Of a stretch of 64,000 bases of DNA, positions 10,476-32,410 are shown piece after piece. Below the pieces are notes generated by a model. It was not told where the DNA came from and ran no database searches. It saw nothing but the letters and a program-made list of their open reading frames with translations. The DNA is taken from the IMG/VR virus record IMGVR_UViG_3300045988_127492, positions 1 to 64,000 of that record. One strand, given 5' to 3'. Both the position numbers and the translations under genes were made by a program. Numbering within the stretch: the stretch's first letter is position 1; each line of letters opens with the position of its first letter. Source of the DNA: a virus.

Positions 10476-10484
10476 AAAACTATT

Positions 10485-10511
10485 TAAAGAGGTGGAATTA
10501 CCACCTCTTTA
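10485..10511 (+). terminator. Hairpin terminator after the capsid gene
   Basis: TAAAGAGGTGG-AATTA-CCACCTCTTTA, a perfect 11-bp stem. The U-tract is weak. Confidence 0.5.
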
Positions 10512-10534
10512 ACTGATTAAAAAGGAGTAATAAC

Positions 10535-11071: not shown

Positions 11072-11081
11072 GAGGTATCAT

Positions 11082-15750: not shown

Positions 15751-17256
15751 ATGAAAAATAGTGAACATACAAAATATTGTTACCTAAAATCAAATTATAA
15801 TATCGAATGTGAACCTTTTACTAATATTGAAACTAATATTAGTATTAAAATTTTTAATGGGGAAATATATACGTCTATCGCAAAATTATATAATAGTATT
15901 AAACATTTAGAAGACATTAAAGAAAAAATTTTTAATTCAAAAGAGACTTTACAAAATGTATTTATACAAAATAATTCTATACATATAAATATTGAAACAA
16001 AAGAAGGACAAACTTATTCAACTACAATAGGTGGTTATAAACGGCTCTATAAGCATAGAGTTGTATTTCAAAATATTGTCAAGAATAATGAAGACATATT
16101 ATTGTCTACTTATATAGGTGCTCAAACTAAAGTACTTATAGATTTTAAATGCGGTCATGAACCTAATTTTGTAACACCTAATAGTTATTTATCTGGATCT
16201 AGGTGCCCAATATGTGCCAATAGAATAACACTTCCTTACATAAATGATTGTTATACCACTGCACCTGAACTGTTACAATATTTTGTAGATGAGAAAGACG
16301 CTATAGGAATGAGCGCAAATGATATCAATAAGCGTTTATATAAATGTCCTAAATGCAATTGTGTCAAAGAAGATACTTTGCACAATATTAAAAGTTTTGG
16401 CTTTAGTTGTCCCGTGTGTTCTGATGGAATTTCTTATCCTGAAAAATTAATGTATAGTATATTGACACAGTTAAAAATTGATTTTGAAATACATAAAACT
16501 TTTAAATGGTGCAAATTTAAAATACATGAAAAAGAACATTTTGGTATATATGATTTTGTAATAAATAATTTAAAATTAATTATAGAAATGGATGGACGCT
16601 TTCATTATTCAGATAATAATAGATCTGGTAATTCTTTAAGAGATTCAAAAGAACTAGACTTTGAAAAGGATAAGCTTGCTATTGAGAATGGATATAAAAT
16701 AATTCGTATTGATTGTAATTATAAATCCATATCCAATAGATTCGATCATATCAAAAATAGTATAGTTAATAGCCTAAATGATTTTCTCAATTTAAAAAAA
16801 ATTGATTGGGAAACTGCTCAACAATATGCTTTGAATTCTAATTTAATAATTGCTTGTCAGTTATGGGAAGAAGGATTTAATAGTGCAGAAATTGCCCAAA
16901 AATTGCAATTAAATATTAGTACTATTATAAACTATTTAAAAATTGGTAAAGAGAATAATATATGCGGCTATACAAGAACCCAAGCTTATAAACGCCGAGA
17001 TATAAAATCACAATTAAAATTGAATAAATATGTAAAAGTTTTAGATTCCAATAACAAATTAATTGGAATCTTTTTTAATTTGGATAGTTTCATCCAAAAT
17101 TACTTTGAATTAACAGGCATAAAAATATCAAAAAGAAATATTCGTGAAGTGCTAAATGGCACGCATAAAAGCACACATAAATTGTATTTTGTAGAAATAT
17201 CTCAAAAAGAATATCGTGAACTTTCCAAATTATCTGAAATCATAAAGGATAACTAA
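15751..17256 (+). CDS. Free-standing homing-endonuclease-like protein (zinc ribbons + PD-(D/E)xK/Vsr-like core + HTH)
   Basis: Repeated CxxC pairs (CGHE...CPIC, CPKC...CPVC). YDFVINNLKLIIEMDGRFHY is a DUF559/Vsr-like nuclease motif. HTH at FNSAEIAQKLQLNISTIINYL. The C-terminus has a NUMOD1/IENR1-like segment. Confidence 0.6.
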   Translation: MKNSEHTKYCYLKSNYNIECEPFTNIETNISIKIFNGEIYTSIAKLYNSIKHLEDIKEKIFNSKETLQNVFIQNNSIHINIETKEGQTYSTTIGGYKRLYKHRVVFQNIVKNNEDILLSTYIGAQTKVLIDFKCGHEPNFVTPNSYLSGSRCPICANRITLPYINDCYTTAPELLQYFVDEKDAIGMSANDINKRLYKCPKCNCVKEDTLHNIKSFGFSCPVCSDGISYPEKLMYSILTQLKIDFEIHKTFKWCKFKIHEKEHFGIYDFVINNLKLIIEMDGRFHYSDNNRSGNSLRDSKELDFEKDKLAIENGYKIIRIDCNYKSISNRFDHIKNSIVNSLNDFLNLKKIDWETAQQYALNSNLIIACQLWEEGFNSAEIAQKLQLNISTIINYLKIGKENNICGYTRTQAYKRRDIKSQLKLNKYVKVLDSNNKLIGIFFNLDSFIQNYFELTGIKISKRNIREVLNGTHKSTHKLYFVEISQKEYRELSKLSEIIKDN

Positions 17257-18690: not shown

Positions 18691-20580
18691 ATGGCTGATT
18701 ATACAATAAATGTAGGCGTAGAGGTTAACGATAGTAAATTAGATGCGCTAGAGACACGAATTAATTCTTTAAAAGAAAAAGAAGTTACTCTTAATGTTGG
18801 GTTAGGCAATACTAAACAGTTAACTAAAAATGCTCAGACAGCAGTACAGACAATTAGCAAAGCAACTGCTAAAGCTGCTAAGAATAGTCCTACTATCAAA
18901 GGTGCTAATCTTATAGAGCAGATAGTAAATCCTGAAGATGCTCTGAAATCTATGTCTAAGAGTGTTAAGGACTTAGCTAAATATGGAGAAAAATTAGATT
19001 TAGGAGAAGTCACTCTATCAGTTAATCAGGGTATCATGGGTGAACTGGATGGACTTCAGAATAAATTAAATAGCATCAAAGAAACTGCTAAGAGCATGGG
19101 TTCTATCCAACTTACTGTTGGAGACAATATTAAAACAGAAAATGGAAAAATAGTTGTTGGAGAATCAAAAAGTTCTACTACTGGTTCTGCAAAGTCTGTA
19201 GGATTGAGTCTTAAGCAAGCACAGGCTGAAATCAAGAAAAACATGAAGACCATCGGCACTCTACAAGAACAGTATGTTGGTGGCATCATTGATAAAGCTA
19301 CATATAAACAATCAAAAAAGACTATAGGTCAGAGGAATGCTCAGTTAGCTAAACAGATTCAGACTCAAGGTACTGCTTCAGACTGGGTTACTTCTGCAGC
19401 CGATTTTAGGCAAGCACAAATTAAGAATCAGGCAGCATATAAAGCAATGACATCTAGTGCTAATGAATATGACAAAGTAATTAGTGACTTAGGTGAAAAG
19501 CAGAAAACATTTAACAAAGCAGCTGAAGTATACAATTCTGGTAAAGCACCTTTAAATAAAACCTTAGGGGAAGGTTATCAGAAACGACTTGATTCTTTCA
19601 ATGATACATATAGACAGTTACAAGAGTCTCACGAAAAACTTGCTACTCTTACCGGAGAAGAACGAGATACAGAAAAAGTTCGATTCAATGCACTTAAGTC
19701 TGAAGCTAATCGTCAAGCCAAGCAGCTTAACAATGTAAATCAGTTCATTTCAAAAACACCTAATAAATATAGTAGATCAGAATATGTAGGTATTGATTTA
19801 GATAAAGCTTCAGATACTGTTCGAACCAAAATGGAACAAATGTCAGCGGAACTTGCTAAAGGTAGTAAATATACCACTGAGTTCAATGCAGCTCAGGGAA
19901 AAATGTATACCACTATTGATAGGGGTTCCGGTGTATTTGAGAAATATCAATTAGCATACAAAGAGGGACCAGGTAACGTAGACCAATCTCTTACTAAGGT
20001 TTCTCAAAGTGTAAAACCTCTTTCTAGTTATGTTTCTGAAATGGGACAAAAGTTCCGTAGTCTTAGTCAGTATCTTATCAGTAATTTTGGATTCCAAGCA
20101 CTTCAAACTGGTGTCACTTCTGGCGTTACTTCCATAAAAGAATTAAATTCAGCAATGACTGAATTAAAGAAGACATCTTCTGGTACAAAAAAAGAATACA
20201 GCGATTTTACTGCTCAGGCTAAAGTAGATGCCGAAGCTATCGGTAGTACAACTACTCAGATCACCAATAGTGCCGCTGACTACTCTCGTCTTGGTTATAC
20301 TCTGAGTGATTCTCAGACTTTAGCTAAAAATACTGGTATTCTGAAAAATGTATCAGAATTTGATTCTATAGATGATGCCACTTCTGCAATGATTTCTATG
20401 ATGAAAGCATACGACGTAAAAGTTGATGATTCCATGGATCTCATTGATAAAATGAATCTTGTTGGTAATAACTATGCCATTTCTACAGATGGTATTGCTA
20501 CTGCTCTGCAGAATTCAGGTTCAGCTTTAGTAGCAGCGGGAAACGACTTTGATAAGTCAGTTGCCCTTGTAACTGCAGCT
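18691..20580 (+). CDS. Tape measure protein, exon 1 (630 aa)
   Basis: RBS GTGAGGTGAG. Long helical Lys/Gln/Ala-rich sequence that enters the conserved TMP core (...NYAISTDGIATALQNSGSALVAAGNDFDKSVALVTAA). Confidence 0.8.
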
Positions 20581-21439
20581 ATGACACAAAATGGCTGTGT
20601 ATATAGAAATATATACTACGAATACATCTAACTGCTGGAAACCCCTTAGAGCCTTATACCACAATATAGAGGAAACTACTATATGATGGTTTAAAAACAT
20701 AAGGATTGGGAAATCAGCAACTAAACTCCTAAGTTTTTTAATATGGAGGAAGCTCAACGACTATTCTCGTGAAGAGCTATGAACTTAGAGAATACATATT
20801 CATAGCAATAGAAGTACGGCGCAATCGCAAATGGCGTAGGTGAAAACCCTTTAAATGGAAATGGTGTACCCTTAACAGATAAAGCTGAAGGTGAAGATAT
20901 AGTCTATACAATATAGAAATATATTGAAATGTTAATTAATTATAAGGATAACAATGAAAAAATTTGATAAAGAATATTCAACTCAATATACACCCGAAGG
21001 ATAAATTAAAATATGACAATATTGCAAAATATATAAGAGGTCGTTTATTACCTTGGATTAATCAGCAGAAACAAAAATGTAATTATATTTGTGCTATTGC
21101 AGGAAAAAGAAGTAATATCGTTCTACATCATATTTATAGTTTCAATAAAATTCTTGAAGAGGCAATCAGTATTCTAAATTTTCCCATTTTAGATAACATA
21201 AATGAATATAGCAACAAACAACTTGATTCTTTATATGATAAATTTATAGAAATACAATCAAATTATAATTCATACGTCTGTATAGAAGACAGCATACATA
21301 AAAAATTTCATTCTATATATGGATATGGAAACAATACACCGGAACAGTGGAATGAATTTTTAGAAACTTATAATAAACAAATTGCATAAATAAAATTAAT
21401 TAATATTTGTAAGGTTTTGCGAACCTTATTACTAAATAG
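20581..21439 (+). mobile_element. Group I intron 1 in the tape measure gene, with an HNH endonuclease gene
   Basis: P1: exon CAGCT 20576-20580 pairs with GGCTG 20593-20597 (U.G, extendable by two wobbles). A TAG at 21437-21439 fixes the 3' splice site after G 21439. P-like TAACTGCTGGAAACC 20629-20643, Q-like AAATCAGCAAC 20711-20721, R GCTCAACGACTAT 20752-20764, S GAAGATATAGTCT 20893-20905. The junction TAA|NSVVQDPSQVGAGLRT restores the TMP core. Confidence 0.85.
20964..21389 (+). CDS. HNH-type homing endonuclease (possibly frameshifted start)
   Basis: C..C...HH...N...H..FH pattern (CNYICAIAG...VLHHIYSFN...IHKKFHSIYG). There is no in-frame ATG. An ATG at 20954 with RBS AAGGAT is out of frame by 1 nt across an A6 run. 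Confidence 0.6.
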   Translation: MIKNIQLNIHPKDKLKYDNIAKYIRGRLLPWINQQKQKCNYICAIAGKRSNIVLHHIYSFNKILEEAISILNFPILDNINEYSNKQLDSLYDKFIEIQSNYNSYVCIEDSIHKKFHSIYGYGNNTPEQWNEFLETYNKQIA

Positions 21440-22081
21440 AACAGTGTTGTACAGGACCCGTCTCAGGTAGGTGCTGGTCTTAGAACAATCGCATTACGTC
21501 TTAGAGGTACTTCTGCTGAAGAACTCACTTCTATGGGTGAAGATACAGAAGGTCTCGTAGAGACTACTTCTAAACTTAATTCAAATATCAAGGCTCTTAC
21601 TGCTGTTAATGGTAAAGCAGGCGTTTCTATTCTTGATATGAACGGAAACTATAGAGATACGTATGATATTTTAAAAGATATCTCTCAGGTATGGGGTGAT
21701 ATTGAGAAACAAGATTTAGCAGATGGTCAGAATAGACAAGCTGCTCTGCTTGAAATGATGGCAGGTAAAAACAGAAGTAATATCCTTGCTAGTATTTTAC
21801 AGCATCCTGAATTACTTACAGATGTTTATAATGACTCTGCAAATAATTATCAGAATTCAGCTCAGAATGAGCTTAATACATATCTTGATTCTATTGAAGC
21901 TAAAACACTTAAAATTCAAGAATCTTGGGCTCAGTTATGGCAAACCGATAGAGCAACAAGTGCTTACAAAGGTATATTAGATTTTGGAAATGGAGCAATC
22001 AATGCTTTAGGCAAAATAGGTATAGATAATGTAATAGGTAGTGCAGCCGGTATTGGATTATCTAAACTTGGAAACTGGGGT
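21440..22081 (+). CDS. Tape measure protein, exon 2 (214 aa)
   Basis: The frame is open only from 21440. NSVVQDPSQVGAGLRTIALRLRG continues the TMP core. Ends ...LSKLGNWG. Confidence 0.8.
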
Positions 22082-22515
22082 GGGACAAATTATCAGTTGG
22101 CCCTTTAGAAAACGCCCCATGTAATCTGGTGGTGACACGGAACGATCTTATTATATAAGAAAGGGATTACTAAGCAAACAACCGAAACTGTCTTTATTCG
22201 AAGGAATAAAGAAATGCTTTTAATTTAGCATTCAGGGTGAACCGAAGTATATACTACTCCCCTATTACAGTAATGTGATAGGTATAGTAACAACGTATAT
22301 ATATGGGTGGTCTGCAGCGAAGCTTCTTTATTTTATAGAGAAGAACGTTCATCGACTATAATGGGAACTTGGTCTCCGGATCAAGAAGGAATAGTCAGGA
22401 CTGTTAGGCAGCTTACGCCGAATAAATTAAAGGGTAAATACATCTTACTCTTGTAAGCAATCTTACCTTATGTGCAAAGGTGATGTAGGCACAATTTTTT
22501 CAAAGAGGTGACAAT

Positions 22516-22653
22516 ATGTCCGATAAAAAGGAAACAATGTTTAAAGCTAAAGAAAAACATCAAATAATTGATTCTCCAATTATAAGAGGTATTTCACACA
22601 GTATAAAAGAAATAAAAGAGCAAAAGACTACTCAGTCTCCTGCTCTTTCTTAA
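22516..22653 (+). CDS. Intron-borne micro-ORF (45 aa)
   Basis: RBS AAAGAGGTGA 6 nt before the ATG. It occupies the slot where the sister introns carry the endonuclease gene. Lys-rich, with no recognisable motif. Confidence 0.3.
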   Translation: MSDKKETMFKAKEKHQIIDSPIIRGISHSIKEIKEQKTTQSPALS

Positions 22654-22738
22654 TATAATACGTACAATCTTCATTTTCAAAGTAAGGACATTCCTCTTCT
22701 TTACATTCTTTGTAGAGAGGACATTCTAATATTTCCAT
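22628..22738 (-). CDS. Intron-borne micro-ORF (36 aa, acidic, 4 Cys)
   Basis: RBS GGAGGTAAAG 3 nt before the ATG. Sequence MEILECPLYKECKEEECPYFENEDCTYYIKKEQETE. Its 3' end overlaps ORF 22516..22653 convergently by 26 nt. Confidence 0.3.
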   Translation of the reverse strand: MEILECPLYKECKEEECPYFENEDCTYYIKKEQETE

Positions 22739-22783
22739 AATCTTTACCTCCATAATATAGTTTTGAAAGTAGGTGACAAATTA

Positions 22784-22990
22784 ATGAATAAAAATAACGA
22801 TTCATCTCATTACACAGAAATTCCCATTGTAGAAATTACTGCTGAAGAAGTAATAGCATATATTAATTCTTTCTTTAAACCAAAAGATAACAATCATTCT
22901 ATTCATGAAGTCTCTGTTCCAATTAAATGTCAAAATTGTTCTCTTCATGAAAATCGGATGGGTTGTACCCAATGTAGTCGAGATTGTTAA
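22784..22990 (+). CDS. Intron-borne small protein (68 aa) with Cys-rich C-terminus
   Basis: RBS AGGTGA. C-terminus KCQNCSLHENRMGCTQCSRDC (CxxC...CxxCxxxC). Confidence 0.4.
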   Translation: MNKNNDSSHYTEIPIVEITAEEVIAYINSFFKPKDNNHSIHEVSVPIKCQNCSLHENRMGCTQCSRDC

Positions 22991-23027
22991 CTTTTCTATA
23001 GTATTGTGCAGAGTGTTAGAGTACAGA

Positions 23028-23055
23028 AAGGAGAACTGTGGTAGCAGTTCTCCTT
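23028..23055. terminator. Bidirectional hairpin terminator inside the intron cargo
   Basis: AAGGAGAACTG-TGGTAG-CAGTTCTCCTT, a perfect 11-bp stem with T-rich or A-rich flanks. Sits between convergent ORFs. Confidence 0.55.
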
Positions 23056-23127
23056 CTATTAAAAATTTTAAAAAGAGAAATATATATGACGAAGTAATTA
23101 AATGATAAAGTAGAACATTATTAGCGA

Positions 23128-23313
23128 TTAGTCAACTTTTTTATTCTTGTATTGTCTTTTCATCATCCCGGTGATAAATTTGACTTTCTCATCAGATAAT
23201 TCTGGATGATTGCAAATTTGATCAACAGTATGATTTTTCGAGTTGTAATATAGACTAGCTAATATTACAACAAGTAAAAGACTACTAAGAGATATTATTA
23301 TTCCAGTATTCAT
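23128..23313 (-). CDS. Small single-pass membrane protein (61 aa)
   Basis: Strong RBS GGGGGTGAAAAG. N-terminal TM helix IIISLSSLLLVVILASLYY and Lys-rich tail. The 102-aa version in the ORF track starts at a TTG without an RBS. Confidence 0.5.
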   Translation of the reverse strand: MNTGIIISLSSLLLVVILASLYYNSKNHTVDQICNHPELSDEKVKFITGMMKRQYKNKKVD

Positions 23314-23560
23314 ATTCTTCTTTTCACCCCCTTCCCTTATAAATTTCTTTATTGGGGAAGTGTATTGCCCAGAACGGGCAGATTCTTCGTCCGCATCAGC
23401 AATACAGAATGTATGCCAACACTTCTGCATGATCAAAAGAAATGATCAAGTATATTATCGTGCAGCGAGTTATAATGCAGCACCTATAACCATAATATAC
23501 CTAGTAGTATAATAACAATATTCGACAACTTTGTATATACAGAACATTAGTTTATTATAA

Positions 23561-24064
23561 TCAAAACTTAGCTCCACATTGTCCACACTGATAAGTTTTA
23601 CCCAGATCACCTGTACCAAGTCTTCCGAAGAGTCCTACTTTGAGAATTTTTCTTGTTGCAGTGATCTTGTTAAGGTTTGTGCTGCCGCAGATTGGACACT
23701 TAGGAACACCTACATTGCCATTTTGCTGACTTCTCATCCATTTGAGTGTCTGTTTATTTTGTTCTTCTACACCTTCAGGAGACTCACTGTATTCTCTTTT
23801 ACCTACAGCAATAGAACTTGAACTTCCGTCAAGTTTGCCGTAGAAGTATTTTTTACGGAGCATTTCATCAGTCACTTTAAAACTAGGATAATCACCATCA
23901 TGTGCCTTTTTATACTCTTCTGTTACTTCAATAAGCGCACTAGAATAATCTATACCAGTACCTATAAAAGTTCCAGTTTCGCAGGTAAGACATTTATCGC
24001 CAATTTTATTAATAGAAGACATACTAACTTTACCGCAATTATTGCAGAATAATAATTCATCCAT
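23561..24064 (-). CDS. Double zinc-ribbon protein (167 aa)
   Basis: RBS GGAGAAAAG. N-terminal CNNCG...CLTCE and C-terminal CPICG...CGQCG, separated by a charged linker. Confidence 0.6.
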   Translation of the reverse strand: MDELLFCNNCGKVSMSSINKIGDKCLTCETGTFIGTGIDYSSALIEVTEEYKKAHDGDYPSFKVTDEMLRKKYFYGKLDGSSSSIAVGKREYSESPEGVEEQNKQTLKWMRSQQNGNVGVPKCPICGSTNLNKITATRKILKVGLFGRLGTGDLGKTYQCGQCGAKF

Positions 24065-24103
24065 ACTATTCTTTTCTCCATATAATAACCTAAGATTTAT
24101 TAT

Positions 24104-24132
24104 ATTATATCATACAGTTCGGTTTTCGCCAA
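24104..24132 (-). promoter_or_regulatory. Candidate sigma70-type promoter for the antisense cargo genes
   Basis: Minus strand: extended -10 TGATATAAT (rc of 24104-24112), 17-nt spacer, -35 TTGGCG (rc of 24127-24132). It straddles the 3' splice site, so the -35 lies in TMP exon 3. Confidence 0.4.
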
Positions 24133-27100
24133 GAATGAAGATGGAGGAATTCTACCGCAGACCAGACGTTCTCAAAGAAATAATTTAATTGCTCAAGGCA
24201 ATCAAGAAGTTCAGAGTAATAAAAAAGCATATGAAGATGATTTAAGAGCATTAAATAATTTAAATAGAGAACTTAATAATAATGGTAAAGAAATCGTAGA
24301 TGTAAATAAGCGTCGTGAAATTGCTAATAAAACATTAGAAGAAGCTAGCGACAGAGCTAAGTCCTATGGTTTACAGATTGCTAATAATACAAAAAATCTT
24401 TCTGATTTCAAACGTGAGAATGAAATTAAAGACGAGCCAACTAAGATGGAAAGTTTTACTTCTGGTCTTAAAGGGATCGCTTCATCTGCTCTTTCAGCTG
24501 TAGGTAATACCGTTATTTCAGCTGTAGGTGGACTTGCTGCAGAAAAATTAATTTCTTTAGCATTCCAAGGTATTGATGCCTTGGTTCATTGGGATGACAA
24601 TATTATTGCTAAAGGCCAGGAAGCGAAAGAAACTATTCTTTCGCAGAATGAAGCCTATAAAAATCAGAAATCTCAATTAGGAGAACTCCAGGAACAATAT
24701 ACAAAATTAGCATCAGGTGTCCGTATATCTGGAAATGCTATAAAAAATGTCAGTCTTTCAGATGATGAGTTTCAATCATTCCTTGATACAAGCAATCAAA
24801 TTGCTAATATTGCACCATCTATGGTTGACAATTGGGATTCTGAAGGAAATGCGATTCTTAAATTTGGAACTAGCGCCAAGGAAACTAATCAGCAAATTTC
24901 AGATTATATTCAACTTCAACGAGATGTAACACATTTATCTATTAAAGATAACTTACAAAATGAATATAAAGGCGTAGTCAAAGATGCGGAGAAAGTTGCT
25001 GAAAAAGTTGCATCTTTAGAAAATCAAAAAGACAATGCGGACAATGTCACTTCTAGTTGGGCTGAATTAAAAGATGCGATGGACTCAAATGATTCTATTA
25101 CTACCATTACCACGCATGGCTCTCAAGAAAAAGAGGTCAGAAAATTATTAAGTAAATATGGCATCACACCTATGGTAAGTAGTGACGAAAATGGTGAGTC
25201 TTATACTATAGATACATCAGGCCTTTCTTCGAATGATAGAGAGGAATTAAAAACTTCTCTGGAAGCAAAAGAAGAATATGCTCAAGGTAACGCAAATTTA
25301 ATTGAATCAGAAAAAGCAGTTCAAGAAGCGGTACAAACTTCTAAATGGAAAGATTTGCTTCCAAGTTTACAAGCATATGTTGAATCATCAAATATGTTTG
25401 ATAACATGGATTCAGATGTTGCAGAAAGAGCTAAAAATGGCATTAACACAATGCTATCCAATATTGATATTTCTCAAATGGCAGACCAAATAAAAGATGC
25501 TGGTGATATTGATGATTGGATTGATAAGACTTTAATCGCTCCTATGACATCAGGTTCAAAAGATGTACAAAAAGCTTGGGCTGACCTTTTTTCATTAGAA
25601 GATTCTTATGGTGCCGAAGGCTCAAAGATGACAGTTGGAGAATGGGCTAAGAAAAGAAATGAATATCTTGAGACCATCTCTAAAGGTACTGGTGAAAGCG
25701 TTAGTAGTCTCGCTAAAAAAATGGGATATAAAACTGACGATGGTTGGAGCATCAAAAGTCAGAATGATATTGCAGCTGCCCGTTTATATGGAAAAAACTA
25801 CGATGAAGACCAAAGAAAAGAAATAGGTAATTACTTAAATGGTCTTACTAAAGATAACTATGAAATTGCCATTGATTTACTTATTAATGGTGATGACAAG
25901 TTCTCATCTTTAAAAGAGTTTAGAAGTAAAGTCGACGAAGCAATAGGTGCAGCTCAAGAAGATGCCGAGAAAGCTACTGTATCTTTAGATGCTATGACAA
26001 CTGCTATTACGTCAGCTAAAACTGGTCTCTCGTCTATTAGTACTATTCTCACTGAAACTACTTCTGCAGGTGGAGTTTCATCTGATAACAGAACATCTCT
26101 GATGGCTATGTTCTCCGGTGTAAAAAATGGTGATGAGGAAGTAAATCTCAACAGACTGTTTTCTACTACTGCCGATGGAGTAAAACTCAACGTAGATGCT
26201 CTAAAAGATTATATCCATTACCAACAGGAAGCTACTGATAAGAAGTTCTCTAAAGGTATTGAAAATCAAATCGGTGATTTAAAAGACCTTCGAACAGCAT
26301 GGCAGAATGCTACTGGAGATGAAAAAGATACTGCTCTTGAAAACTTGAAGAATGCGCAGGATGATTATGTTGCTTATATGCAGCAACAGTCTGAATGGCA
26401 AGCAATCAAGAAACAGCAGGATGATCTACTCTCTCAGTATACTCAGTGGCAGACTGCTCAGAGTACAGAGAATGCCGGAGATAGATATAATAATATTTAT
26501 TCTGGTTTAAAAAATGCTAAAGATGCATATGATAAAGGCCTTGTAGGTACAGACGATTTCAAAACATTCGCTGCACTCATCTCTCCTACTGGTTCAGACG
26601 ATGCTAAAAACTTCGCTGAGAACTATGGTAAAGCAGTAAGATATCTCACTGAAGATAAAACAGGAGTTAATAATTTCTTAGCTGACCTTAAAGCTAAAGG
26701 TATGGCTTCATATGATAAGTCCGATGATAGATGGTCATTTAATATAGATGACATGGATAGAGCAGCTCAGTCTCTTGGTATTGGTACTGAGTTTATGAAA
26801 GCAAACTTCGGTCGTCTTCGTGACTATGGTATTGATAATAACTTTATTAGTTCTACAGAAGAAGGTATCAGTAGAGTTAAAGAACTGAGTTTGGCATTAG
26901 CCGAAGAAGAAAAACGCCTTGACAGCTTAGATGATAACTTAGCTACAAACGATACAACAAGAAGTGCTTCTCAGAAGAAAATTGCACAGTACAAAGAGGA
27001 TCTGAAAGAAACAACAGAAAATCTTTCTGAATATTATGGCGAAGATTATACTCAGCAAGCCGCTGCTGATTTCGATGGAGCTGCCATAGCTGTTCAGCAG

Positions 27101-30100
27101 TTAGATAAGTCTATTGACAAAGTAAAAAAAGATAGTACTCTTACTGCTGCTGAGAAAAACTCCATGATTTCTAAAATGATTGCTGAACAGACAGAGCTTG
27201 CTGCAGAGCAATATAGTAGTATTGAAGACCTTCGAAATCATGATACTTCCTCTCTCACTGAAGGGTTAGATATTGATTCAACTGCAACAGTTTCAGCTAT
27301 TGAACAGATTAATCAGGCATATGAGGATCAAAATACAGAGGTAACTGATCTTATTGACACTCTTAGCCAGTATAGTTCTGAGCAGTTAGAAGGCATTAAT
27401 TTTAATGATGGTAAATGGGATACCGAATTAGGCGATGCTGAGAAAGCTGTTGAGTCCTTATGTGATAAGCTCGGATTGACTAAAGATCAGACACAGGAAG
27501 TTATTAATGCACTGAAAGAAGCAGAAAAATTAAAAGATAGCACTGATTCTTCAGATGAATCCAGCGAAACAAAAGAGATTAAAAATGATGCTAAGGAAGC
27601 ACAAGAAGATTTTAATTCTCTTACTGGTAAAACATATAAGATTGATTTAGATACCACTGACTTAGATACCGCTCATAAACAAGTAACAGATTTAAGCTCA
27701 GAAGTAGATAAATATAGAGATCGTGACGGAAAATATCATTCTGAAATTTCTGGTGGCGAAGACCTTCAAACTATGTATACAGGGGCTATTTCACATGAAC
27801 AAGATGTAGAATATAGTTCAACTGCCATGTCTCAAGCCGATTCTAGCTCTAGTATTGTAAAAGCCGCTCAAGACTTTATGCAAGCTAAGAATGAGATGGA
27901 TATTCAAACTCAGCTATACCAGAAAGGTATGGACAATACCCTTGACCAAGCTACTCAGGATGCCAACGCAGCATTTGAGACTTTACAACAAGCTCAGACT
28001 GACTCAGGTATTAAATTAGTAGATACTGATAATATTCAGACTGCTGAAGACCAATTGCTTCAGATGTCAAATGATGACATTCAGGCCAAAGTAGACGTTC
28101 AGGCAGACACTAGCGAAGCTGAATCAGATATTAGCAACCTTCAGAACCTACAAGGCTCTACTATTACAATGACTTGTGATGTAGCCAATGAAGAAAGTTT
28201 TGAACAGGCAAAATCTACGATTGAGTCTATGCCTACAGGTACTACTGCTACTGTTGATATAGAGGTTAATGGCGAAGAGGACGTAGAAAAAGCCACAGAA
28301 CTAATTGAATCCGCACCTACTAATGGTAGCGAATTCGTTGTTAATTGCCATGTAGAAAATGCAGAAGATTTGGAGAAATTAACTGCCGCAACTGATGCCG
28401 CAAATGCCAAAGGAGCAAATATTAAATTAAATGCTAGTGTTGGTGAGGTGGACACTTCTACCGTTTCAGTTGATACAGAAGTTCCTGTCAAAGGCAAACT
28501 TGAAATGGAACCTTACTCTGGAGAAGCTGTTGAAGTAAATGCCAAGGCTAACATTACTGGTGTTGTTGGTGGAGAAGGTGTCGAAGTAAGTCTTAATGCC
28601 AAAGCAAATGTTACAGAAGCACCGACTGTTCCTGATACTACTGTTAAGGCAACCGCACACGTTGATGAAGCACCAGAAGTACCAGATGCAAATGGTAATG
28701 CTCACTATGAAAATGACTTGCCAACTGACGCAGGTAATATTTCTGGATTTGCTCACTATGACACAGATCTTCCAACTTCTGCTCCAGATATTACAGGAAC
28801 CGTTACATATTATGCTCACATTGTAGGTGCTCCATCGGGGGGATCTACTCACGGTGGTAGCGGTGGTAACTTTGCTTCTGGTACTATGACATCAGTTGCC
28901 TATGCTTCTGGTTCTGCATACAATGTTCTTAATATGAAACCACTCTCTTCTGCTTATGACAAAGGAGACGTTGCTTTAAAAGAAGATCAAAAGGCATTAG
29001 TCAATGAACAGAAGAAAAATGGACACTCTGAATCCATAGTACGTGATGGCGTGTGGAGTTTAATTCCTGGAGGGGCTCATTTCGAAAACCTCAAGAAAGG
29101 TGACATTATCTTCTCTGCTCAACAGACAGACGATCTGTTAAAACACGGTGCAACTCCGGGACATGCTAGAACGTATGCACAAGGTACTACTTCCAGAGTA
29201 ACTCTTGCTCCTGCTTTTGCTTCTGGTTCTACTAATACAGAACTCGACAATAAGATCAAAGAAGTAAGTACTCAAGCTAAAGACTGGATTAGTGTAGCTC
29301 TTGATCGTTTGGAGAGAATTGTTGAAAAGTACAAAGACATTGCCGAAAGTAATTATACCAATTACAAATCTTCCGAAAGAAATTATAACAAAGCTCTTAC
29401 TGCTATAAAACAGCAACTGAAAACTCAAAAAAATTCTAGGGCAGCATATGTAAATAAAGCAAATGAAGTTGCTTCCGCAGTAGGCCTTTCTGAAGATTTA
29501 AAAAGAAAAGTCCAGAATGGTACTATCAACATAGAAACCTTGTCTGAAGATAACAAAAAACGTGTTGAAGCATATCAAGAATGGTATGAGAAGATTTTAG
29601 ATTGCGACAAAGCCATACGACAGCTTACTATATCACAAAAAGATTTAGCCAAAGCTAAAGTAGACCGTGTTATTGATGCTTATGACACTGTTATAGGGAA
29701 ACGTGAAAATAAAGCTGACTATTATAAAGCCCAGCAAGAATTAAGAGTTACACAAGGATATAATCAAAAGCCCGGTTCTAAATATGAACAGTATATGAAG
29801 AAAGAGCTTTATTATACAAATGAGCAAAAGCGACTTACCGATCAAGAAATAAATACTTATAAAGGTAAGATGAAAGAATATCTTTCTGAAAATGGGCATA
29901 GAACAGTTGATCCAGAATATCAAAAAATGAAAAAGCAACTTTATGCTTTACAAACTACTTCTGTTAAGTTGGCAAATGAAGCTGCACAGTTAGTTCAGGC
30001 TCTACAGGATAATCGTGAACAAATAAAGCAATGGGCTGTTGACCGTTGGAATCGTGCTGGATCAAAACAGGATGCTGCAATTGATTATAAACTATCTACA

Positions 30101-32410
30101 GATAATCCCGATTTACAGATTGCAGAGAAAGATTATACCGAACGAATTAAAACAAACAACAATCAAATAGGGACTCTCCAAAAGTTACGAGAGGAAAAAG
30201 CAGAATACTATGATGCGTATTTCAGCAGCGGAAATAATGAGGAAGCGCAGAAGTATTTGGATGAGATTGCTAAGATCGACGAACAGATATTAAATCTTGG
30301 TACAAGCACAGAAGAGCTGAAAAATAAAATCATGGAACTGCGTTGGAAACCGTTTGAAGACGCACAAAGTGATCTATCAAATGTAATAAATGAATATCAG
30401 ACTATGCAGAAACTTCTTGGTGACACTGAAAGCTTCTACAATGATGATGGTTCGTTTACTGAAAATGGGTTAACTAATATCCTTCTCATTCAAGAATCTA
30501 TAGATGCTACTAAACAGAAAATTGCTAACTATAGAGAAGCACTAGATAAATTAGACGAGCAGTATAAAAATGGATGTTATAGTCAAGAAGAATACCAGCA
30601 GAAATCTCAAGAGCTGCTAAATGGAATACAACAGGAATCAGTTGCTCTTTCCGATTTACAGCAAAATATGCTTTCAATGTACGAAACTCAGGCTAAGACG
30701 GAAAATGATTTATTGCAAAAAAATATTGATAAACGTCTGGAAGCATTAGATGCGAAAGAAAAGTATTATGATTATGATAAAACTTTAAAAAAGAAATCAA
30801 AAGATATTAATGCTTTAAAAGCACAGATTGCTGCACTCGAAGGTACTTCTAATGCTGCCGGCAAGGCCAGATTGGAAAAATTAAAAGCAGAACTTGCAGA
30901 TGCCGAAGATGATATGCAGGATACTGTACATCAGCACGAAACCGAAATGAAAAAGACTGGTTTAGAAAATCTTCAAACAGATGCAGAGAATGCGCTTGAT
31001 AATACATTAGAGGCTCTAAAAAAGAATACCAGTTTCCAAGAAGCAGTTATTAATAATATGCTGGACAACGTGAAATTAAATTATGACAGTACGTATAGTC
31101 ATTTACACGATGTCATGGATCAGTATGGATTAAAGGTTTCTAATACTTTTGATAAATTAATTTCAAAATCTGCTGATTTTAATACTTCTTTAGCGTCTCA
31201 AACCAAAGCTATGCAAGAAGTTATCAATATGGCTACTAATCTTCCAACTGGCGGTGTCAGCAATGGACAAGGTGGTACAAATGGCACAGCAGATGGAGCA
31301 GTTAAAGACACTGCAAATAATAATCAAACTGCTAGTGGCGCAGGAAAACAAGATGACCTTGACAATATAACTTATACATTCGCATTAAACAAATCAGCAA
31401 TTTATCTTACACCAAATGAATCTTATACACTACAAGTGAAATGGTCTCCTAAAGTTCCTTTGCATTCAGATGTCACTTGGTCTAGCAATAAAACAAATAT
31501 TGCTAAAGTTTCATCATCAGGTAAAGTTACTGCTACTAAAGGAGTGCAATCTTCTAGCAATGGGAAAACAACAGGAACATTAGTTGGTGGAGTTGAAAAA
31601 ACATATAAAGCCATTATTACTGCCAAAACAGACTTTGGTTCAAAAACTTGTGCTGTTTATGTAATGCCTCTTGAACATTATAATGCTATTCATGATTATG
31701 CAAATAAGAGAGGACTGACTGTTTCTGATGACGAGATGCAGACAGCGCTTAAATATGCATACAAAAATGGTGGAAAGGAATCTTACCAGTCTAACGTAGC
31801 TGTAGATGGGTTTGTAAAAACAAAACTTAATAAATGGTTTAATAATCTCCCAGAAAGTTCAGGAAATGATAGTGATATTCCTTCTGATACAAGTGCTCTG
31901 GTTTCATATTTTATTGGCAAAGGTAAGAATGTTAATGGTAGTAATCTACAAGAACTTGCAAATATTTTAGGTATTAAAACTCCAGGAGTAACGGCTTATG
32001 ATACATGGAGTAGTACTTTGAAAAATAAAATTCTAAAAGCATATAAATCATATGGTTTTGCTACAGGTGGAATTATCAATAAACTTATTCCCGCTGATAT
32101 GAATACCCTTTTAGGTAAGGCTATTATTAGCAATGGTGATCAAGGATTTATTGGAGCCAAAGTTGGCGAGACGGTAATGACCGAAGAGTTTACTCGTCTA
32201 TTAAAACCGTCTATTACTGCAATGAATGGTTTTACCAGTATGTTTAGTCCATACACTCCACCTACTACCGCTAATGATTACACCATTAATAATGAAATAA
32301 ATATCAATGTAGCAAATATGAATAGTGATTTAGATATTCGGGATGTTGCAAATAAAGTCTCTACAATTATTAATAAGAATATGACCAGAGACTGGAAAAA
32401 ACTTAGATAA
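24122..32410 (+). CDS. Tape measure protein, exon 3 (2762 aa)
   Basis: The frame is open from 24089 with no RBS at ATG 24446. Very long coiled-coil-like Glu/Lys/Gln/Asp-rich sequence. Degenerate repeats near 28.5-28.8 kb. Ig-like (Big_2-type) segment at about 31360-31670. Confidence 0.85.
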   Translation, partial: VFAKNEDGGILPQTRRSQRNNLIAQGNQEVQSNKKAYEDDLRALNNLNRELNNNGKEIVDVNKRREIANKTLEEASDRAKSYGLQIANNTKNLSDFKRENEIKDEPTKMESFTSGLKGIASSALSAVGNTVISAVGGLAAEKLISLAFQGIDALVHWDDNIIAKGQEAKETILSQNEAYKNQKSQLGELQEQYTKLASGVRISGNAIKNVSLSDDEFQSFLDTSNQIANIAPSMVDNWDSEGNAILKFGTSAKETNQQISDYIQLQRDVTHLSIKDNLQNEYKGVVKDAEKVAEKVASLENQKDNADNVTSSWAELKDAMDSNDSITTITTHGSQEKEVRKLLSKYGITPMVSSDENGESYTIDTSGLSSNDREELKTSLEAKEEYAQGNANLIESEKAVQEAVQTSKWKDLLPSLQAYVESSNMFDNMDSDVAERAKNGINTMLSNIDISQMADQIKDAGDIDDWIDKTLIAPMTSGSKDVQKAWADLFSLEDSYGAEGSKMTVGEWAKKRNEYLETISKGTGESVSSLAKKMGYKTDDGWSIKSQNDIAAARLYGKNYDEDQRKEIGNYLNGLTKDNYEIAIDLLINGDDKFSSLKEFRSKVDEAIGAAQEDAEKATVSLDAMTTAITSAKTGLSSISTILTETTSAGGVSSDNRTSLMAMFSGVKNGDEEVNLNRLFSTTADGVKLNVDALKDYIHYQQEATDKKFSKGIENQIGDLKDLRTAWQNATGDEKDTALENLKNAQDDYVAYMQQQSEWQAIKKQQDDLLSQYTQWQTAQSTENAGDRYNNIYSGLKNAKDAYDKGLVGTDDFKTFAALISPTGSDDAKNFAENYGKAVRYLTEDKTGVNNFLADLKAKGMASYDKSDDRWSFNIDDMDRAAQSLGIGTEFMKANFGRLRDYGIDNNFISSTEEGISRVKELSLALAEEEKRLDSLDDNLATNDTTRSASQKKIAQYKEDLKETTENLSEYYGEDYTQQAAADFDGAAIAVQQLDKSIDKVKKDSTLTAAEKNSMISKMIAEQTELAAEQYSSIEDLRNHDTSSLTEGLDIDSTATVSAIEQINQAYEDQNTEVTDLIDTLSQYSSEQLEGINFNDGKWDTELGDAEKAVESLCDKLGLTKDQTQEVINALKEAEKLKDSTDSSDESSETKEIKNDAKEAQEDFNSLTGKTYKIDLDTTDLDTAHKQVTDLSSEVDKYRDRDGKYHSEISGGEDLQTMYTGAISHEQDVEYSSTAMSQADSSSSIVKAAQDFMQAKNEMDIQTQLYQKGMDNTLDQATQDANAAFETLQQAQTDSGIKLVDTDNIQTAEDQLLQMSNDDIQAKVDVQADTSEAESDISNLQNLQGSTITMTCDVANEESFEQAKSTIESMPTGTTATVDIEVNGEEDVEKATELIESAPTNGSEFVVNCHVENAEDLEKLTAATDAANAKGANIKLNASVGEVDTSTVSVDTEVPVKGKLEMEPYSGEAVEVNAKANITGVVGGEGVEVSLNAKANVTEAPTVPDTTVKATAHVDEAPEVPDANGNAHYENDLPTDAGNISGFAHYDTDLPTSAPDITGTVTYYAHIVGAPSGGSTHGGSGGNFASGTMTSVAYASGSAYNVLNMKPLSSAYDKGDVALKEDQKALVNEQKKNGHSESIVRDGVWSLIPGGAHFENLKKGDIIFSAQQTDDLLKHGATPGHARTYAQGTTSRVTLAPAFASGSTNTELDNKIKEVSTQAKDWISVALDRLERIVEKYKDIAESNYTNYKSSERNYNKALTAIKQQLKTQKNSRAAYVNKANEVASAVGLSEDLKRKVQNGTINIETLSEDNKKRVEAYQEWYEKILDCDKAIRQLTISQKDLAKAKVDRVIDAYDTVIGKRENKADYYKAQQELRVTQGYNQKPGSKYEQYMKKELYYTNEQKRLTDQEINTYKGKMKEYLSENGHRTVDPEYQKMKKQLYALQTTSVKLANEAAQLVQALQDNREQIKQWAVDRWNRAGSKQDAAIDYKLSTDNPDLQIAEKDYTERIKTNNNQIGTLQKLREEKAEYYDAYFSSGNNEEAQKYLDEIAKIDEQILNLGTSTEELKNKIMELRWKPFEDAQSDLSNVINEYQTMQKLLGDTESFYNDDGSFTENGLTNILLIQESIDATKQKIANYREALDKLDEQYKNGCYSQEEYQQKSQELLNGIQQESVALSDLQQNMLSMYETQAKTENDLLQKNIDKRLEALDAKEKYYDYDKTLKKKSKDINALKAQIAALEGTSNAAGKARLEKLKAELADAEDDMQDTVHQHETEMKKTGLENLQTDAENALDNTLEALKKNTSFQEAVINNMLDNVKLNYDSTYSHLHDVMDQYGLKVSNTFDKLISKSADFNTSLASQTKAMQEVINMATNLPTGGVSNGQGGTNGTADGAVKDTANNNQTASGAGKQDDLDNITYTFALNKSAIYLTPNESYTLQVKWSPKVPLHSDVTWSSNKTNIAKVSSSGKVTATKGVQSSSNGKTTGTLVGGVEKTYKAIITAKTDFGSKTCAVYVMPLEHYNAIHDYANKRGLTVSDDEMQTALKYAYKNGGKESYQSNVAVDGFVKTKLNKWFNNLPESSGNDSDIPSDTSALVSYFIGKGKNVNGSNLQELANILGIKTPGVTAYDTWSSTLKNKILKAYKSYGFATGGIINKLIPADMNTLLGKAIISNGDQGFIGAKVGETVMTEEFTRLLKPSITAMNGFTSMFSPYTPPTTANDYTINNEININVANMNSDLDIRDVANKVSTIINKNMTRDWKKLR

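What the first reader, a model, noticed from the sequence alone, without database searches (positions are those of the whole stretch)
22082..24121. Group I intron in the tape-measure gene whose endonuclease slot holds a five-ORF, two-strand cargo
Seen directly: (i) The TMP frame stops 9 codons after ...NWG (22081). It resumes without ATG or RBS at 24122 (VFAKNEDGG...), and that frame is open only from 24089. (ii) The splice-site pairings are canonical for group I introns. P1 is exon TGGGGT 22076-22081 with intron GCCCCA 22114-22119, ending in a U.G wobble. The adjacent guide GAAAAC 22108-22113 is perfectly complementary to the first 6 nt of the next exon, GTTTTC 24122-24127 (P10). Nt 24121 is G (omega-G). 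(iii) R-like GTTCATCGACTAT 22347-22359 and S-like GAAGGAATAGTCA 22385-22397 (GACTA/TAGTC = P7) match the two sister introns. The whole 2040 nt should therefore be excised as one intron. Where the sister introns carry a GIY-YIG or HNH gene, this one carries about 1.6 kb with five small ORFs on both strands. None has LAGLIDADG, GIY-YIG, HNH or PD-(D/E)xK motifs. The cargo also contains an internal bidirectional terminator and an antisense promoter. To my knowledge, phage group I introns are ORF-less or carry a sense-strand homing endonuclease. A ribozyme carrying an independently transcribed accessory cassette inside an essential tail gene would be unusual. It also raises a mechanistic question, because the ribozyme must fold across a 1.7-kb peripheral insertion that is transcribed convergently.
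Basis: partly seen in the sequence, partly recalled or inferred. Interest (0 to 1): 0.85.

Follow-up and report, generated by a model that had tools for sequence, protein, structure and literature searches.

The report
Tail-gene intron carrying swappable accessory genes

Summary
The tape-measure frame stops 9 codons after 22081. It resumes at 24122 with no start codon.

UGGGGU/GCCCCA (P1, U.G), GAAAAC/GUUUUC (P10), omega-G 24121 and a new P9.0 (22399-22404 with 24114-24119) are all present. They covary across six related intron lineages: 98.7% of cells are paired and 10 of 22 pairs carry double changes.

The first ~415 nt are 92-96% conserved, against 61-77% for the flanking exons. Distant relatives have an uninterrupted tape measure that aligns across the junction.

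The interpretation needs correcting. The cargo is not inside the ribozyme. It lies 3' of a complete core, as in the two sister introns and in IStrons.

The cargo is a mosaic of cassettes with their own promoters and terminators. It is anchored by a conserved antisense zinc-ribbon gene whose promoter overlaps the 3' splice site. Relatives carry HEPN, TIR, GmrSD_N, NYN, MazF and lipoprotein genes at the same place.

Weak points: Rfam scores only 18 bits, P3 cannot be found in this lineage, and no RNA evidence is available.

Verdict: a real group I intron and a new variant of a known kind. It resembles an IStron in layout but carries accessory genes rather than a transposon.

The parts
22076..22081 (+). 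P1 5' strand (end of exon 2, UGGGGU). The 5' splice site follows U22081, which forms U.G with G22114.
   Evidence: Sequence. P1 covaries in 6 lineages and the U.G pair is invariant.
22082..22497 (+). Conserved ribozyme block. P1 extension hairpin 22082-86/22100-04; in-frame stop 22106-08; P2 22121-26/22165-70, with a GNRA hairpin 22129-38 and P2.1 22146-51/22155-60. Two extra hairpins 22191-22212 and 22213-22232. P4 22233-36/22311-14; P5 22247-54/22295-22302, with hairpin 22261-82. P6 22323-31/22335-43; P7 22354-58/22392-96; P8 22368-74/22379-85 (UCCG loop). P9 22407-19; P9.1 22431-37/22463-69; P9.2 22472-75/22489-92. P3 was not identified.
   Evidence: 92-96% identical in relatives whose exons are 61-77% identical. 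Compensatory changes in P2, P2.1, P6 and P8. RF00028 partial hit 22257-22418, 18.4 bits. Helices were read from the sequence and compared with L100, L031, L105, L039, L128 and L189.
22108..22119 (+). Internal guide sequence: GAAAAC (P10 strand, 22108-13) plus GCCCCA (P1 strand, 22114-19).
22399..22404 (+). P9.0 5' strand (GACUGU), directly after P7.
   Evidence: Pairs with 24114-24119. Conserved in all 28 close relatives, L031 and L105. Compensatory G-C to A-U change in L039.
22516..22653 (+). Cargo gene 1, 45 aa, with a GAGGTG ribosome-binding site.
   Evidence: 51-aa homologues in the cargo of relatives. No family match.
22614..22649 (-). Intrinsic terminator for minus-strand transcription. 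It overlaps the end of cargo gene 2.
   Evidence: The same hairpin follows the core directly in relatives that lack gene 1.
22628..22753 (-). Cargo gene 2, 41 aa, Cys-rich. A promoter-like site lies at 22779..22752.
   Evidence: 36-aa homologues were called in L001-L004.
22763..22990 (+). Cargo gene 3, up to 75 aa (probable ATG at 22784), with a C-terminal CxxC...CxxC.
   Evidence: A similar C-terminus occurs in the cargo ORF L064 11467-11679.
23128..23436 (-). Cargo gene 4. The ORF is 102 aa. The probable start is ATG 23313, giving a ~61-aa small membrane protein.
   Evidence: Nearly identical copies in the cargo of many relatives.
23561..24064 (-). Cargo gene 5, 167 aa, with two zinc ribbons. 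It is the conserved anchor gene next to the 3' splice site.
   Evidence: 131 homologue clusters, all unnamed. Found on the minus strand next to exon B in about 41 of 52 interrupted relatives, including lineages with a different ribozyme. AF2 pLDDT 84, with no PDB fold match.
24104..24132 (-). Sigma-A-type promoter (TTGGCG-17-TGaTATAAT) for the antisense transcription unit. Its -35 element lies in exon 3 and it overlaps the 3' splice site.
   Evidence: top hit. The extended -10 is conserved in relatives, and in L031, L039 and L189.
24114..24121 (+). P9.0 3' strand (ACAGUU 24114-19), then C, then omega-G 24121.
24122..24445 (+). First 108 codons of exon 3, which have no start codon. GUUUUC 24122-27 is the P10 strand.
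   Evidence: tblastn homology starts at residue 1 in 28 of 28 relatives. The frame is open in all of them, with 23-30 synonymous-only codon differences. Several relatives have no start codon until +63 to +210.

Best explanation
Window 22082-24121 is one group I intron in the tape-measure gene of a temperate, uncultured human-gut phage.

**Splicing mechanism**
- The ~415-nt ribozyme at the 5' end is complete before the cargo is transcribed.
- The internal guide sequence selects the 5' splice site (P1, U22081.G22114).
- The 3' splice site lies 1.6 kb further on. It is selected by three short elements: P9.0 (GACUGU/ACAGUU), omega-G 24121 and P10 (GAAAAC/GUUUUC).
- Splicing of the late transcript would join ...LGNWG to VFAKNEDGG.... 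Together with removal of intron 2, this gives a 3,606-aa tape measure. This step is inferred.

**The cargo**
- The stretch between P9.2 and P9.0' tolerates any sequence. In this phage family it has become a hotspot for small accessory genes.
- The cassettes have their own sigma-A-type promoters, ribosome-binding sites and terminators, and most lie on the antisense strand. They can therefore be expressed independently of late transcription, for example from the prophage. This too is inferred.
- The conserved core on one side, and the zinc-ribbon gene plus exon 3 on the other, offer homology arms for swapping cassettes between related phages.
- The function of the anchor zinc-ribbon protein is unknown.
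For: **Exon continuity**
- Exon-3 homology begins exactly at 24122 in 28 of 28 close relatives, always after a G.
- The 108 codons before the first start codon stay open and show synonymous change.
- Nine distant relatives have one uninterrupted tape measure. L037 aligns across the junction.

**Splice-site logic covaries**
- P1 strands: UGGGGU/GCCCCA, AUGGGU/GCCCAU, GCGGGU/GCCCGC, GUGGGU/GCCCAC, GAAGGU/GCCUUC, GUAGGU/GCCUAU.
- P10 strands: GAAAAC/GUUUUC, AAAAAU/AUUUUU, AAAGAU/AUCUUU, AAAUAU/AUAUUU, GAAUAU/AUAUUC.
- 98.7% of cells are paired, 10 of 22 pairs carry double changes, and 0 of 500 shuffles reach these values.

**Core**
- 92-96% conserved against 61-77% for the exons.
- Compensatory changes occur in P2, P2.1, P6 and P8.
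- The R and S elements and P7 are present. RF00028 gives a partial hit on the right strand.
- The L189 intron sits at the same G|(I/V)F site with the same layout. It scores 44 bits, E 4e-10.

**Layout precedent in this window**
- Both Rfam-positive sister introns have their ORF 3' of the core.
- L001 lacks intron 2 exactly.

**Cargo**
- It is a mosaic of cassettes in relatives. There are cassette insertions and deletions between this window and the 97-99% identical L001.
- A promoter and a terminator are predicted.
- Relatives carry HEPN, TIR, GmrSD_N, NYN, and PemK plus HTH domains, and lipoproteins.
- An integrase gene lies in the window.
Against: - RF00028 reaches only 18.4 bits, against a gathering score of 50.
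- P3, a core helix, could not be found. The positional equivalents CAACCG (22179-84) and GGGAAC (22363-68) do not pair, and there is no GUUYYY upstream. P3 covaries cleanly in the sister lineages.
- The helix assignments and the 45-column alignment behind one search were assembled by hand.
- Late transcription must read through the cargo, including the hairpin at 23029-23052 and convergent antisense transcription.
- No spliced junction or intron-less allele of this lineage was found in IMG/VR or in the metagenome contigs (0 hits, against 24 for the unspliced junction). Those collections are DNA, so this says nothing about RNA.
- No cargo gene of this window has an assigned function.
Confidence: 0.8

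Rival explanations
1. Relic intron and a two-piece tape measure. The ribozyme no longer splices. The phage makes an 853-aa N-terminal protein ending in GGTNYQLAL and a separate C-terminal protein. The 2 kb between them is simply an intergenic accessory-gene region.
For: - There is no P3 and only a sub-threshold Rfam score.
- Gene callers annotate relatives as 852-853-aa plus ~2700-aa proteins.
- The GG(T/I)NYQLVL tail is conserved.
Against: - The conserved tail is explained by conserved RNA: the codons overlap the P1 extension hairpin and the guide sequence.
- Exon 3 has 108 conserved, open codons with no start codon. In L002 and L017 the frame opens only 27 nt upstream and the first start codon is at +210.
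- P1, P10 and P9.0 covariation at a 3' site 1-3.8 kb away has no purpose without splicing.
- The core is under much stronger constraint than the exons.
Confidence: 0.08
2. Splicing occurs but is not simple cis self-splicing. Either the internal terminators split the precursor so that the halves are joined in trans, or the ribozyme, with its weak P3, needs a protein cofactor. That cofactor could be the zinc-ribbon protein or a host factor.
For: - Terminator-like hairpins lie inside the cargo (sequence 23029-23052).
- P3 is missing.
- The zinc-ribbon gene is constantly associated with the 3' end of these introns across different ribozyme lineages.
Against: - There is no extended complementarity between the end of the core and the 3' end beyond chance. 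Trans association would therefore rest on about 11 bp.
- No plus-strand promoter for a separate exon-3 transcript was identified.
- L031, L061, L065 and L189 lack the zinc-ribbon gene yet keep the splice-site pairings.
- The protein has no RNA-binding or maturase-like match.
Confidence: 0.08
3. IStron-like or otherwise transposable chimera. The cargo is a degenerate insertion sequence or another mobile element that moved the intron here.
For: - The layout (group I core at the 5' end, 1.6-kb cargo at the 3' end) is that of IStrons (PMC4227781).
- There is a weak Zn_ribbon_IS1595 hit, E 0.0076, below the cutoff.
Against: - No TnpA, TnpB or other transposase domain occurs in any cargo examined.
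- The element sits at one homologous site, G|(I/V)F, in all lineages rather than at scattered sites.
- The cargo content is heterogeneous.
Confidence: 0.02

Closest known systems
IStrons (CdISt1, BcISt1 and others): group I intron plus IS200/IS605 or IS607 element (PMC4227781, PMC3984707)
   Same: - The group I ribozyme is at the 5' end.
- A 1-2 kb block of non-endonuclease genes is embedded near the 3' end.
- The whole 1.4-2.6 kb element is spliced out of the mRNA, as shown in vivo for IStrons.
- Some occur in Clostridium phages.
   Different: - Here the cargo has no transposase or TnpB.
- It is a variable set of small genes, mostly antisense and with their own promoters.
- The element occupies one fixed site in one gene rather than transposing.
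- The ribozyme lacks the IA2 hallmarks P7.1 and P7.2.
Group I introns in tape-measure genes of Bacillus cereus-group prophages (TMP-IVS1 to IVS3; PMC2504315)
   Same: - They are self-splicing-type introns in prophage tape-measure genes.
- Several sites occur per gene.
- Different introns have adapted to the same site through P1 and P10.
- Some lack a complete endonuclease gene.
   Different: That section describes endonuclease genes, complete or not, and no accessory-gene cargo. Here the intron holds 1.6 kb to more than 5 kb of unrelated genes.
Phage T4 nrdD (sunY) intron with a remote 3' splice junction (from memory: Michel et al., Genes Dev 1992)
   Same: The catalytic core is at the 5' end, a long ORF-containing tail follows, and the 3' splice site is far downstream and recognised through short 3'-terminal pairings.
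   Different: The T4 tail encodes one sense-strand endonuclease, with no antisense transcription units and no variable content.
Prophage morons and defence-gene hotspots (general knowledge of lambdoid morons and P2/P4 hotspots)
   Same: - Autonomous promoter-gene-terminator cassettes.
- Variable content between close relatives.
- Defence-type domains (TIR, HEPN, GmrSD_N, toxin-antitoxin, lipoproteins) at the equivalent place in relatives.
   Different: Known hotspots lie between genes. This one lies inside an essential structural gene and depends on RNA splicing to be harmless.

Membership tests
Group I intron | P1: the 5' exon end pairs with an internal guide sequence, with U.G at the splice site | tested here: met
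   UGGGGU/GCCCCA. 6 of 6 pairs hold in 8 sequences, 3 pairs have double changes, and the U.G pair is invariant.
Group I intron | The terminal nucleotide is G (omega-G), and P10 forms between the guide sequence and the 3' exon | tested here: met
   A G precedes the exon in 28 of 28 relatives and in L031, L105, L039 and L189. P10 has 6 of 6 pairs, 3 of them with double changes.
Group I intron | P7 (guanosine-binding helix, R/S elements) with flanking J6/7 and J8/7 | tested here: met
   GACUA 22354-58 pairs with UAGUC 22392-96. The R and S motifs resemble the Rfam consensus and both sister introns. There is no variation, so there is no covariation test.
Group I intron | P4-P6 domain and P8 | tested here: met
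   - P5 covaries: GUAUAUAC/GUAUAUAU, against AUAUUGA/UCAAUAU in L039 and UAUUCAAU/AUUGAAUA in L100.
- P6 stays paired in its long and short forms.
- P8 shows compensatory changes against L100, and wobble changes within the lineage.
- P4 has only 4 bp.
- These assignments were read by eye.
Group I intron | P3, pairing the segment upstream of the P4-P6 domain with the segment 3' of P7 | tested here: not met
   The positional equivalents CAACCG and GGGAAC do not pair, and no alternative is convincing. P3 is present and covaries in L100, L031, L105, L039, L128 and L189.
Group I intron | Score at or above the Rfam RF00028 gathering threshold | tested here: not met
   18.4 bits against 50. The model also misses related interrupted loci and gives 17 bits to L031, but 44 bits to L189.
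Group I intron | Precise excision restores a continuous host gene | tested here: met
   The join is in frame. Uninterrupted homologues align across the junction.
Group I intron | GTP-dependent self-splicing | not testable with these tools
   Needs an RNA experiment.
Mobile group I intron with a homing endonuclease | Intron-encoded LAGLIDADG, GIY-YIG, HNH, His-Cys or PD-(D/E)xK endonuclease | tested here: not met
   There is no such domain in any of the five ORFs, and no fold match for the 167-aa protein.
IStron | An IS200/IS605 or IS607 transposase or TnpB ORF in the 3' part of the intron | tested here: not met
   No transposase families were found. There is only a sub-threshold zinc-ribbon match.
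Moron or accessory-gene hotspot | Autonomous promoter and terminator; content variable between close relatives | tested here: met
   A promoter and a terminator are predicted. The cargo is mosaic. There are cassette insertions and deletions against the 97-99% identical L001. Expression was not tested.

The most novel reading that the evidence does not exclude
The 3' tail of a family of tape-measure group I introns may be a dedicated cargo bay. Gut Firmicutes phages would keep and exchange defence, superinfection-exclusion or counter-defence genes there. These genes would be transcribed antisense from a promoter built into the 3' splice site, and the ribozyme would make the island invisible to the essential tail gene. 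The ubiquitous antisense zinc-ribbon protein could then be a new intron-associated factor for mobility, maintenance or regulation.
Probability: 0.35. Interest if true: 0.8.

Novelty: new variant of a known kind. Interest (0 to 1): 0.62.

Why it matters
**What it would show**
- A self-splicing intron can serve as a neutral landing pad for arbitrary accessory genes inside an essential, highly expressed structural gene. Until now this idea has been tied to transposons, in IStrons.
- It gives a concrete and widespread example. Among 78 related viral contigs, 52 are interrupted at this site. The cargo ranges from about 0.5 kb to about 5 kb and includes TIR, HEPN, GmrSD-like, NYN, toxin-antitoxin and lipoprotein genes.

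**What becomes testable**
- How a 3' splice site is found several kilobases away using about 11 bp plus omega-G.
- How splicing coexists with convergent transcription.
- What the conserved antisense zinc-ribbon gene does.

**Practical consequence**
- Annotators split these tape measures into two genes and miss the intron, because Rfam's model does not reach its threshold.

Tried and rejected
- **Rfam at the gathering threshold.** It finds only the two sister introns. At a permissive threshold the candidate scores 18.4 bits. Nine interrupted relatives gave nothing.
- **Megablast against GenBank phages.** No relative was found. By tblastn the nearest isolates are Brevibacillus phage Sundance and Enterocloster phages, at 26-31% identity. 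The zinc-ribbon protein has no match.
- **P3 search.** RNAduplex and regular-expression searches found nothing convincing. The candidates were:
  - CCCAU/AUGGG, which overlaps the guide sequence;
  - CCUAUUA/UAAUGGG, which lineage variants break;
  - ACCGA/UUGGU, which competes with P8;
  - a strand in the P1 loop, which conflicts with the covarying P1 extension.
- **14-mer search for the 5' P3 region in other contexts.** It gave only chance hits.
- **Long-range pairing bridging the cargo.** It is no better than shuffled sequence.
- **Junction-peptide search in the protein collection.** It was uninformative, because the short query found no candidates, not even known ones.
- **Spliced-junction DNA pattern.** 0 hits in the metagenome and viral contigs, against 24 for the unspliced junction.
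- **Genome collection.** Only distant MAG hits appeared, so the host was not identified.
- **My first pattern search** had a misplaced N and retrieved only the L039 contig.
- **Translational bypass and non-canonical initiation of exon 3.** I considered and rejected both. The gap is 2 kb, there is no usable Shine-Dalgarno and start pair, and protein homology begins at the first exon codon.
Full report
**1. What is at the coordinates**

The window is a low-GC phage. It is temperate, with a tyrosine integrase at 49568-50746, and it also carries a ribonucleotide reductase, a RecD2-like helicase and a GH25-CHAP endolysin.

A TP901-type tape-measure gene starts at 18691 and is broken twice.
- Rfam finds RF00028 at 8607-8979 (78 bits) and at 20569-20926 (62 bits), but not in 22082-24121.
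- Intron 2 is 20581-21439. The contig L001 is 97-99% identical to the window and lacks exactly this stretch. Its 852-aa protein reads ...VALVTAANSVVQDP... straight through.
- In both sister introns the ORF lies 3' of the Rfam-defined core. These are a GIY-YIG gene at 9051-9833 and an unassigned 141-aa ORF at 20964-21389.

**2. The two halves are one gene**

I queried the protein collection with the spliced junction region. The homologues listed that span this region (~830-930 aa) end here, with 852-853 aa the commonest length. Their variable C-terminal region is followed by a conserved tail, GG(T/I)NYQLVL.

The DNA explains this pattern. Just upstream of 22081 the exons of relatives are strongly diverged. 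Just downstream the sequence is almost identical. The conserved tail is therefore translated intron RNA.

Evidence that exon 3 is translated as a continuation of exon 2:
- In 28 of 28 close relatives, tblastn homology to exon 3 starts at its first residue (V/I-F-...). It is always preceded by G and always begins GTTTTY.
- Several relatives have no in-frame start codon until +63 to +210, and their frame opens only 27 nt upstream.
- The 108 start-less codons stay open in all relatives at about 62% nucleotide identity, with 23-30 synonymous-only codon differences.
- Nine more distant relatives have a single uninterrupted tape measure of more than 4000 aa. L037 aligns across the junction: GLSKLGNWG|VFAKN against GLTAIKTFSVSAKD.

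**3. It behaves as a group I intron**

The first 413-419 nt after the 5' splice site are 92-96% identical among relatives whose flanking exons are 61-77% identical. Conservation stops at about 22497, where the cargo begins.

Other lineages interrupt the tape measure at the homologous G|(I/V)F site. I could define both splice sites in L031, L105, L039 and L189, and the 5' site in L100.

| Lineage | P1 (exon / guide) | P10 (guide / exon) |
|---|---|---|
| window | UGGGGU / GCCCCA | GAAAAC / GUUUUC |
| L100 | AUGGGU / GCCCAU | 3' site not available |
| L031 | GCGGGU / GCCCGC | AAAAAU / AUUUUU |
| L105 | GUGGGU / GCCCAC | AAAGAU / AUCUUU |
| L039 | GAAGGU / GCCUUC | AAAUAU / AUAUUU |
| L189 | GUAGGU / GCCUAU | GAAUAU / AUAUUC |

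It is conserved in the close relatives, L031 and L105. It changes compensatorily to GACUA/UAGUC in L039.
- I assembled a 45-column alignment of these elements by hand. On it, 98.7% of cells pair and 10 of 22 pairs carry changes on both sides. No shuffle out of 500 reaches these values, and slid registers drop to 36-52% paired.
- The L189 intron has the same layout, with a 1.3-kb tail and an antisense promoter at its 3' end. It scores 44 bits, E 4e-10, with RF00028.

**4. Ribozyme anatomy in the window**

These helices were read from the sequence and compared with L100, L031, L105, L039, L128 and L189.

| Element | Coordinates | Note |
|---|---|---|
| P1 | 22076-81 / 22114-19 | Extension hairpin 22082-86 / 22100-04, which covaries |
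| Stop codon | 22106-08 | In frame with exon 2 |
| P2 | 22121-26 / 22165-70 | Three-way junction |
| GNRA hairpin in P2 | 22129-38 | GUG-GUGA-CAC, against AUG-GUAA-CAU in L100 |
| P2.1 | 22146-51 / 22155-60 | |
| Two extra hairpins | 22191-22212, 22213-22232 | Shared by the whole subfamily |
| P4 | 22233-36 / 22311-14 | Only 4 bp |
| P5 | 22247-54 / 22295-22302 | Covaries; preceded on its 3' side by the conserved GGUAUAGUAACAACG |
| P6 | 22323-31 / 22335-43 | |
| P7 | 22354-58 / 22392-96 | |
| P8 | 22368-74 / 22379-85 | UCCG loop; compensatory changes against L100 |
| P9 | 22407-19 | |
| P9.1 | 22431-37 / 22463-69 | |
| P9.2 | 22472-75 / 22489-92 | |

Within the lineage, P2 and P2.1 change compensatorily: GUAAUC/GAUUAC becomes GUAACC/GGUUAC, and UCUUAU/AUAAGA becomes UCUCA/UGAGA.

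*The unresolved point is P3.*
- It is clear and covaries in the other lineages: AUUGCU/AGCAAU, AAGCG/CGCUU, AUCACG/CGUGAU and AAUCCC/GGGAUU.
- The equivalent strands here, CAACCG and GGGAAC, do not pair. No convincing partner exists.
- Where they could be read, both strands are the same in all 80 lineage copies examined: the 3' strand in 80 of 80 and the 5' strand in 78 of 80.
- I therefore cannot say the core is canonical. The strong constraint on the block argues that it works. It may do so with a non-standard P3, or with help.

**5. Where the cargo sits**

The cargo (22498 to about 24100) lies between P9.2 and the 3'-terminal P9.0 strand. It is outside the catalytic core.
- The ribozyme does not have to fold across it. 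Only about 11 bp plus omega-G must be found at a distance.
- I found no further long-range pairing beyond chance.
- This is the layout of the two sister introns, and of IStrons, which splice in vivo at 1.4-2.6 kb (PMC4227781). From memory, it is also the layout of the T4 nrdD intron.

**6. What the cargo is**

All five ORFs appear to be real genes, judging by their conservation in relatives. None matches Pfam, PHROGs or PADLOC significantly.

The 167-aa double zinc-ribbon gene on the minus strand is the constant element.
- It has 131 homologue clusters, all unnamed.
- It lies immediately next to exon B in about 41 of 52 interrupted relatives. These include lineages with quite different ribozymes.
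- Its predicted structure (pLDDT 84) has no PDB match.
- Its promoter (TTGGCG-17-TGaTATAAT, 24132..24104) is the best promoter-like site in the region. It overlaps the 3' splice site, and its -35 element lies in exon 3. The extended -10 recurs in L031, L039 and L189.
- A minus-strand terminator lies at 22649..22614.

Between the core and this gene the content is a mosaic of cassettes, shuffled among otherwise similar phages. It differs by insertions and deletions even from the 97-99% identical L001.

Cargo found in relatives:

| Domain or protein type | Locus |
|---|---|
| HEPN (pEK499_p136) | L003 |
| GmrSD_N | L056, L062 |
| NYN | L056 |
| TIR | L070 |
| PemK/MazF plus HTH | L050 |
| Lipoproteins | L031, L061, L065 |

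Intron length runs from about 0.9 kb (L033, no ORF of 70 aa or more) to more than 5 kb.

**7. Interpretation**

The best reading is a functional group I intron whose 3' tail has become a hotspot for accessory genes.
- *Shown:* the gene architecture, the splice-site pairings and their covariation, the conservation pattern, the variability of the cargo, and the predicted promoter and terminator.
- *Inferred:* that splicing actually happens, that late transcription reads through the cargo, and that the cassettes are expressed from the prophage and act in defence or exclusion.
- *Rivals:* a relic intron with a two-piece tape measure; trans-splicing or protein-assisted splicing; and an IStron-like transposon. 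All are less likely, for the reasons given with each.

**8. Known or new**

*Already known*
- Group I introns in prophage tape-measure genes (PMC2504315).
- Group I introns with non-endonuclease cargo at the 3' end, the IStrons (PMC4227781, PMC3984707).

*Apparently new*
- Five full-text searches found no description of a phage group I intron carrying a variable, largely antisense, independently transcribed accessory-gene island.
- No description of the zinc-ribbon gene family was found either.
- The phage family has no cultured close relative. It is common in human-gut assemblies.

I rate it a new variant of a known kind. Interest is moderate to high, limited by the absence of RNA evidence and of any function for the cargo in this window.

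Noticed in passing
window 20581-21439; L001 6160-6162: Intron 2 of the tape-measure gene is polymorphic. L001 is 97-99% identical in the flanks and lacks it exactly, which fixes the junction VALVTAA|NSVVQDP. The 141-aa intron ORF (20964-21389) has no Pfam or PHROG support for the HNH label.
   Followed up: yes
L019, L020, L021, L027, L030 (around 9280-11310): These relatives have a further interruption of about 2 kb earlier in the tape measure. The protein ends ...ILEDLAG, just before the conserved KNR motif, and an R-like motif lies at about 9412. The gene therefore has at least three intron sites in this family.
   Followed up: partly
window 15751-17256: A 501-aa ORF with weak DUF559 (Vsr-like endonuclease) and HTH_40 matches sits between tail genes. 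It is absent from the gene maps of L001-L004, so it is probably a free-standing endonuclease insertion.
   Followed up: partly
window 8607-9880: Intron 1 has an Rfam score of 78 bits and a confirmed GIY-YIG ORF at 9051-9833. It interrupts an unidentified gene (8156-8626 and 9885-10475). I could not reconcile the Rfam P1 register with the reading frames, so its exact splice sites remain open.
   Followed up: partly
window 55838-57634 (minus strand): The ribonucleotide reductase large-subunit ORF begins at position 78 of the Pfam barrel profile and carries a TSCPD domain. The gene may also be split or truncated.
   Followed up: no
window 18691-32410: After removal of both introns the tape measure would be 3,606 aa. 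Distant relatives reach more than 5,000 aa as a single ORF (L036), which implies very long tails.
   Followed up: no
L031-L082 (interrupted loci); window 22191-22232: RF00028 misses a whole set of group I-like introns at the tape-measure site: 0 gathering hits in 9 loci, and 17 bits for L031. Members of this subfamily share two extra hairpins between the 5' strand of P3 and P4, and the motif GGUAUAGUAACAACG before the 3' strand of P5.
   Followed up: partly
A2 alignment, C-terminal 45 residues of the zinc-ribbon protein: The C-terminal ribbon comes in two sharply distinct versions, ...GLFG..GDLGKTYQC..CGAKF and ...GMLGLFSKKINKSFKCN.CGYTW. They are distributed independently of how similar the N-terminal part is, which suggests domain swapping.
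   Followed up: no
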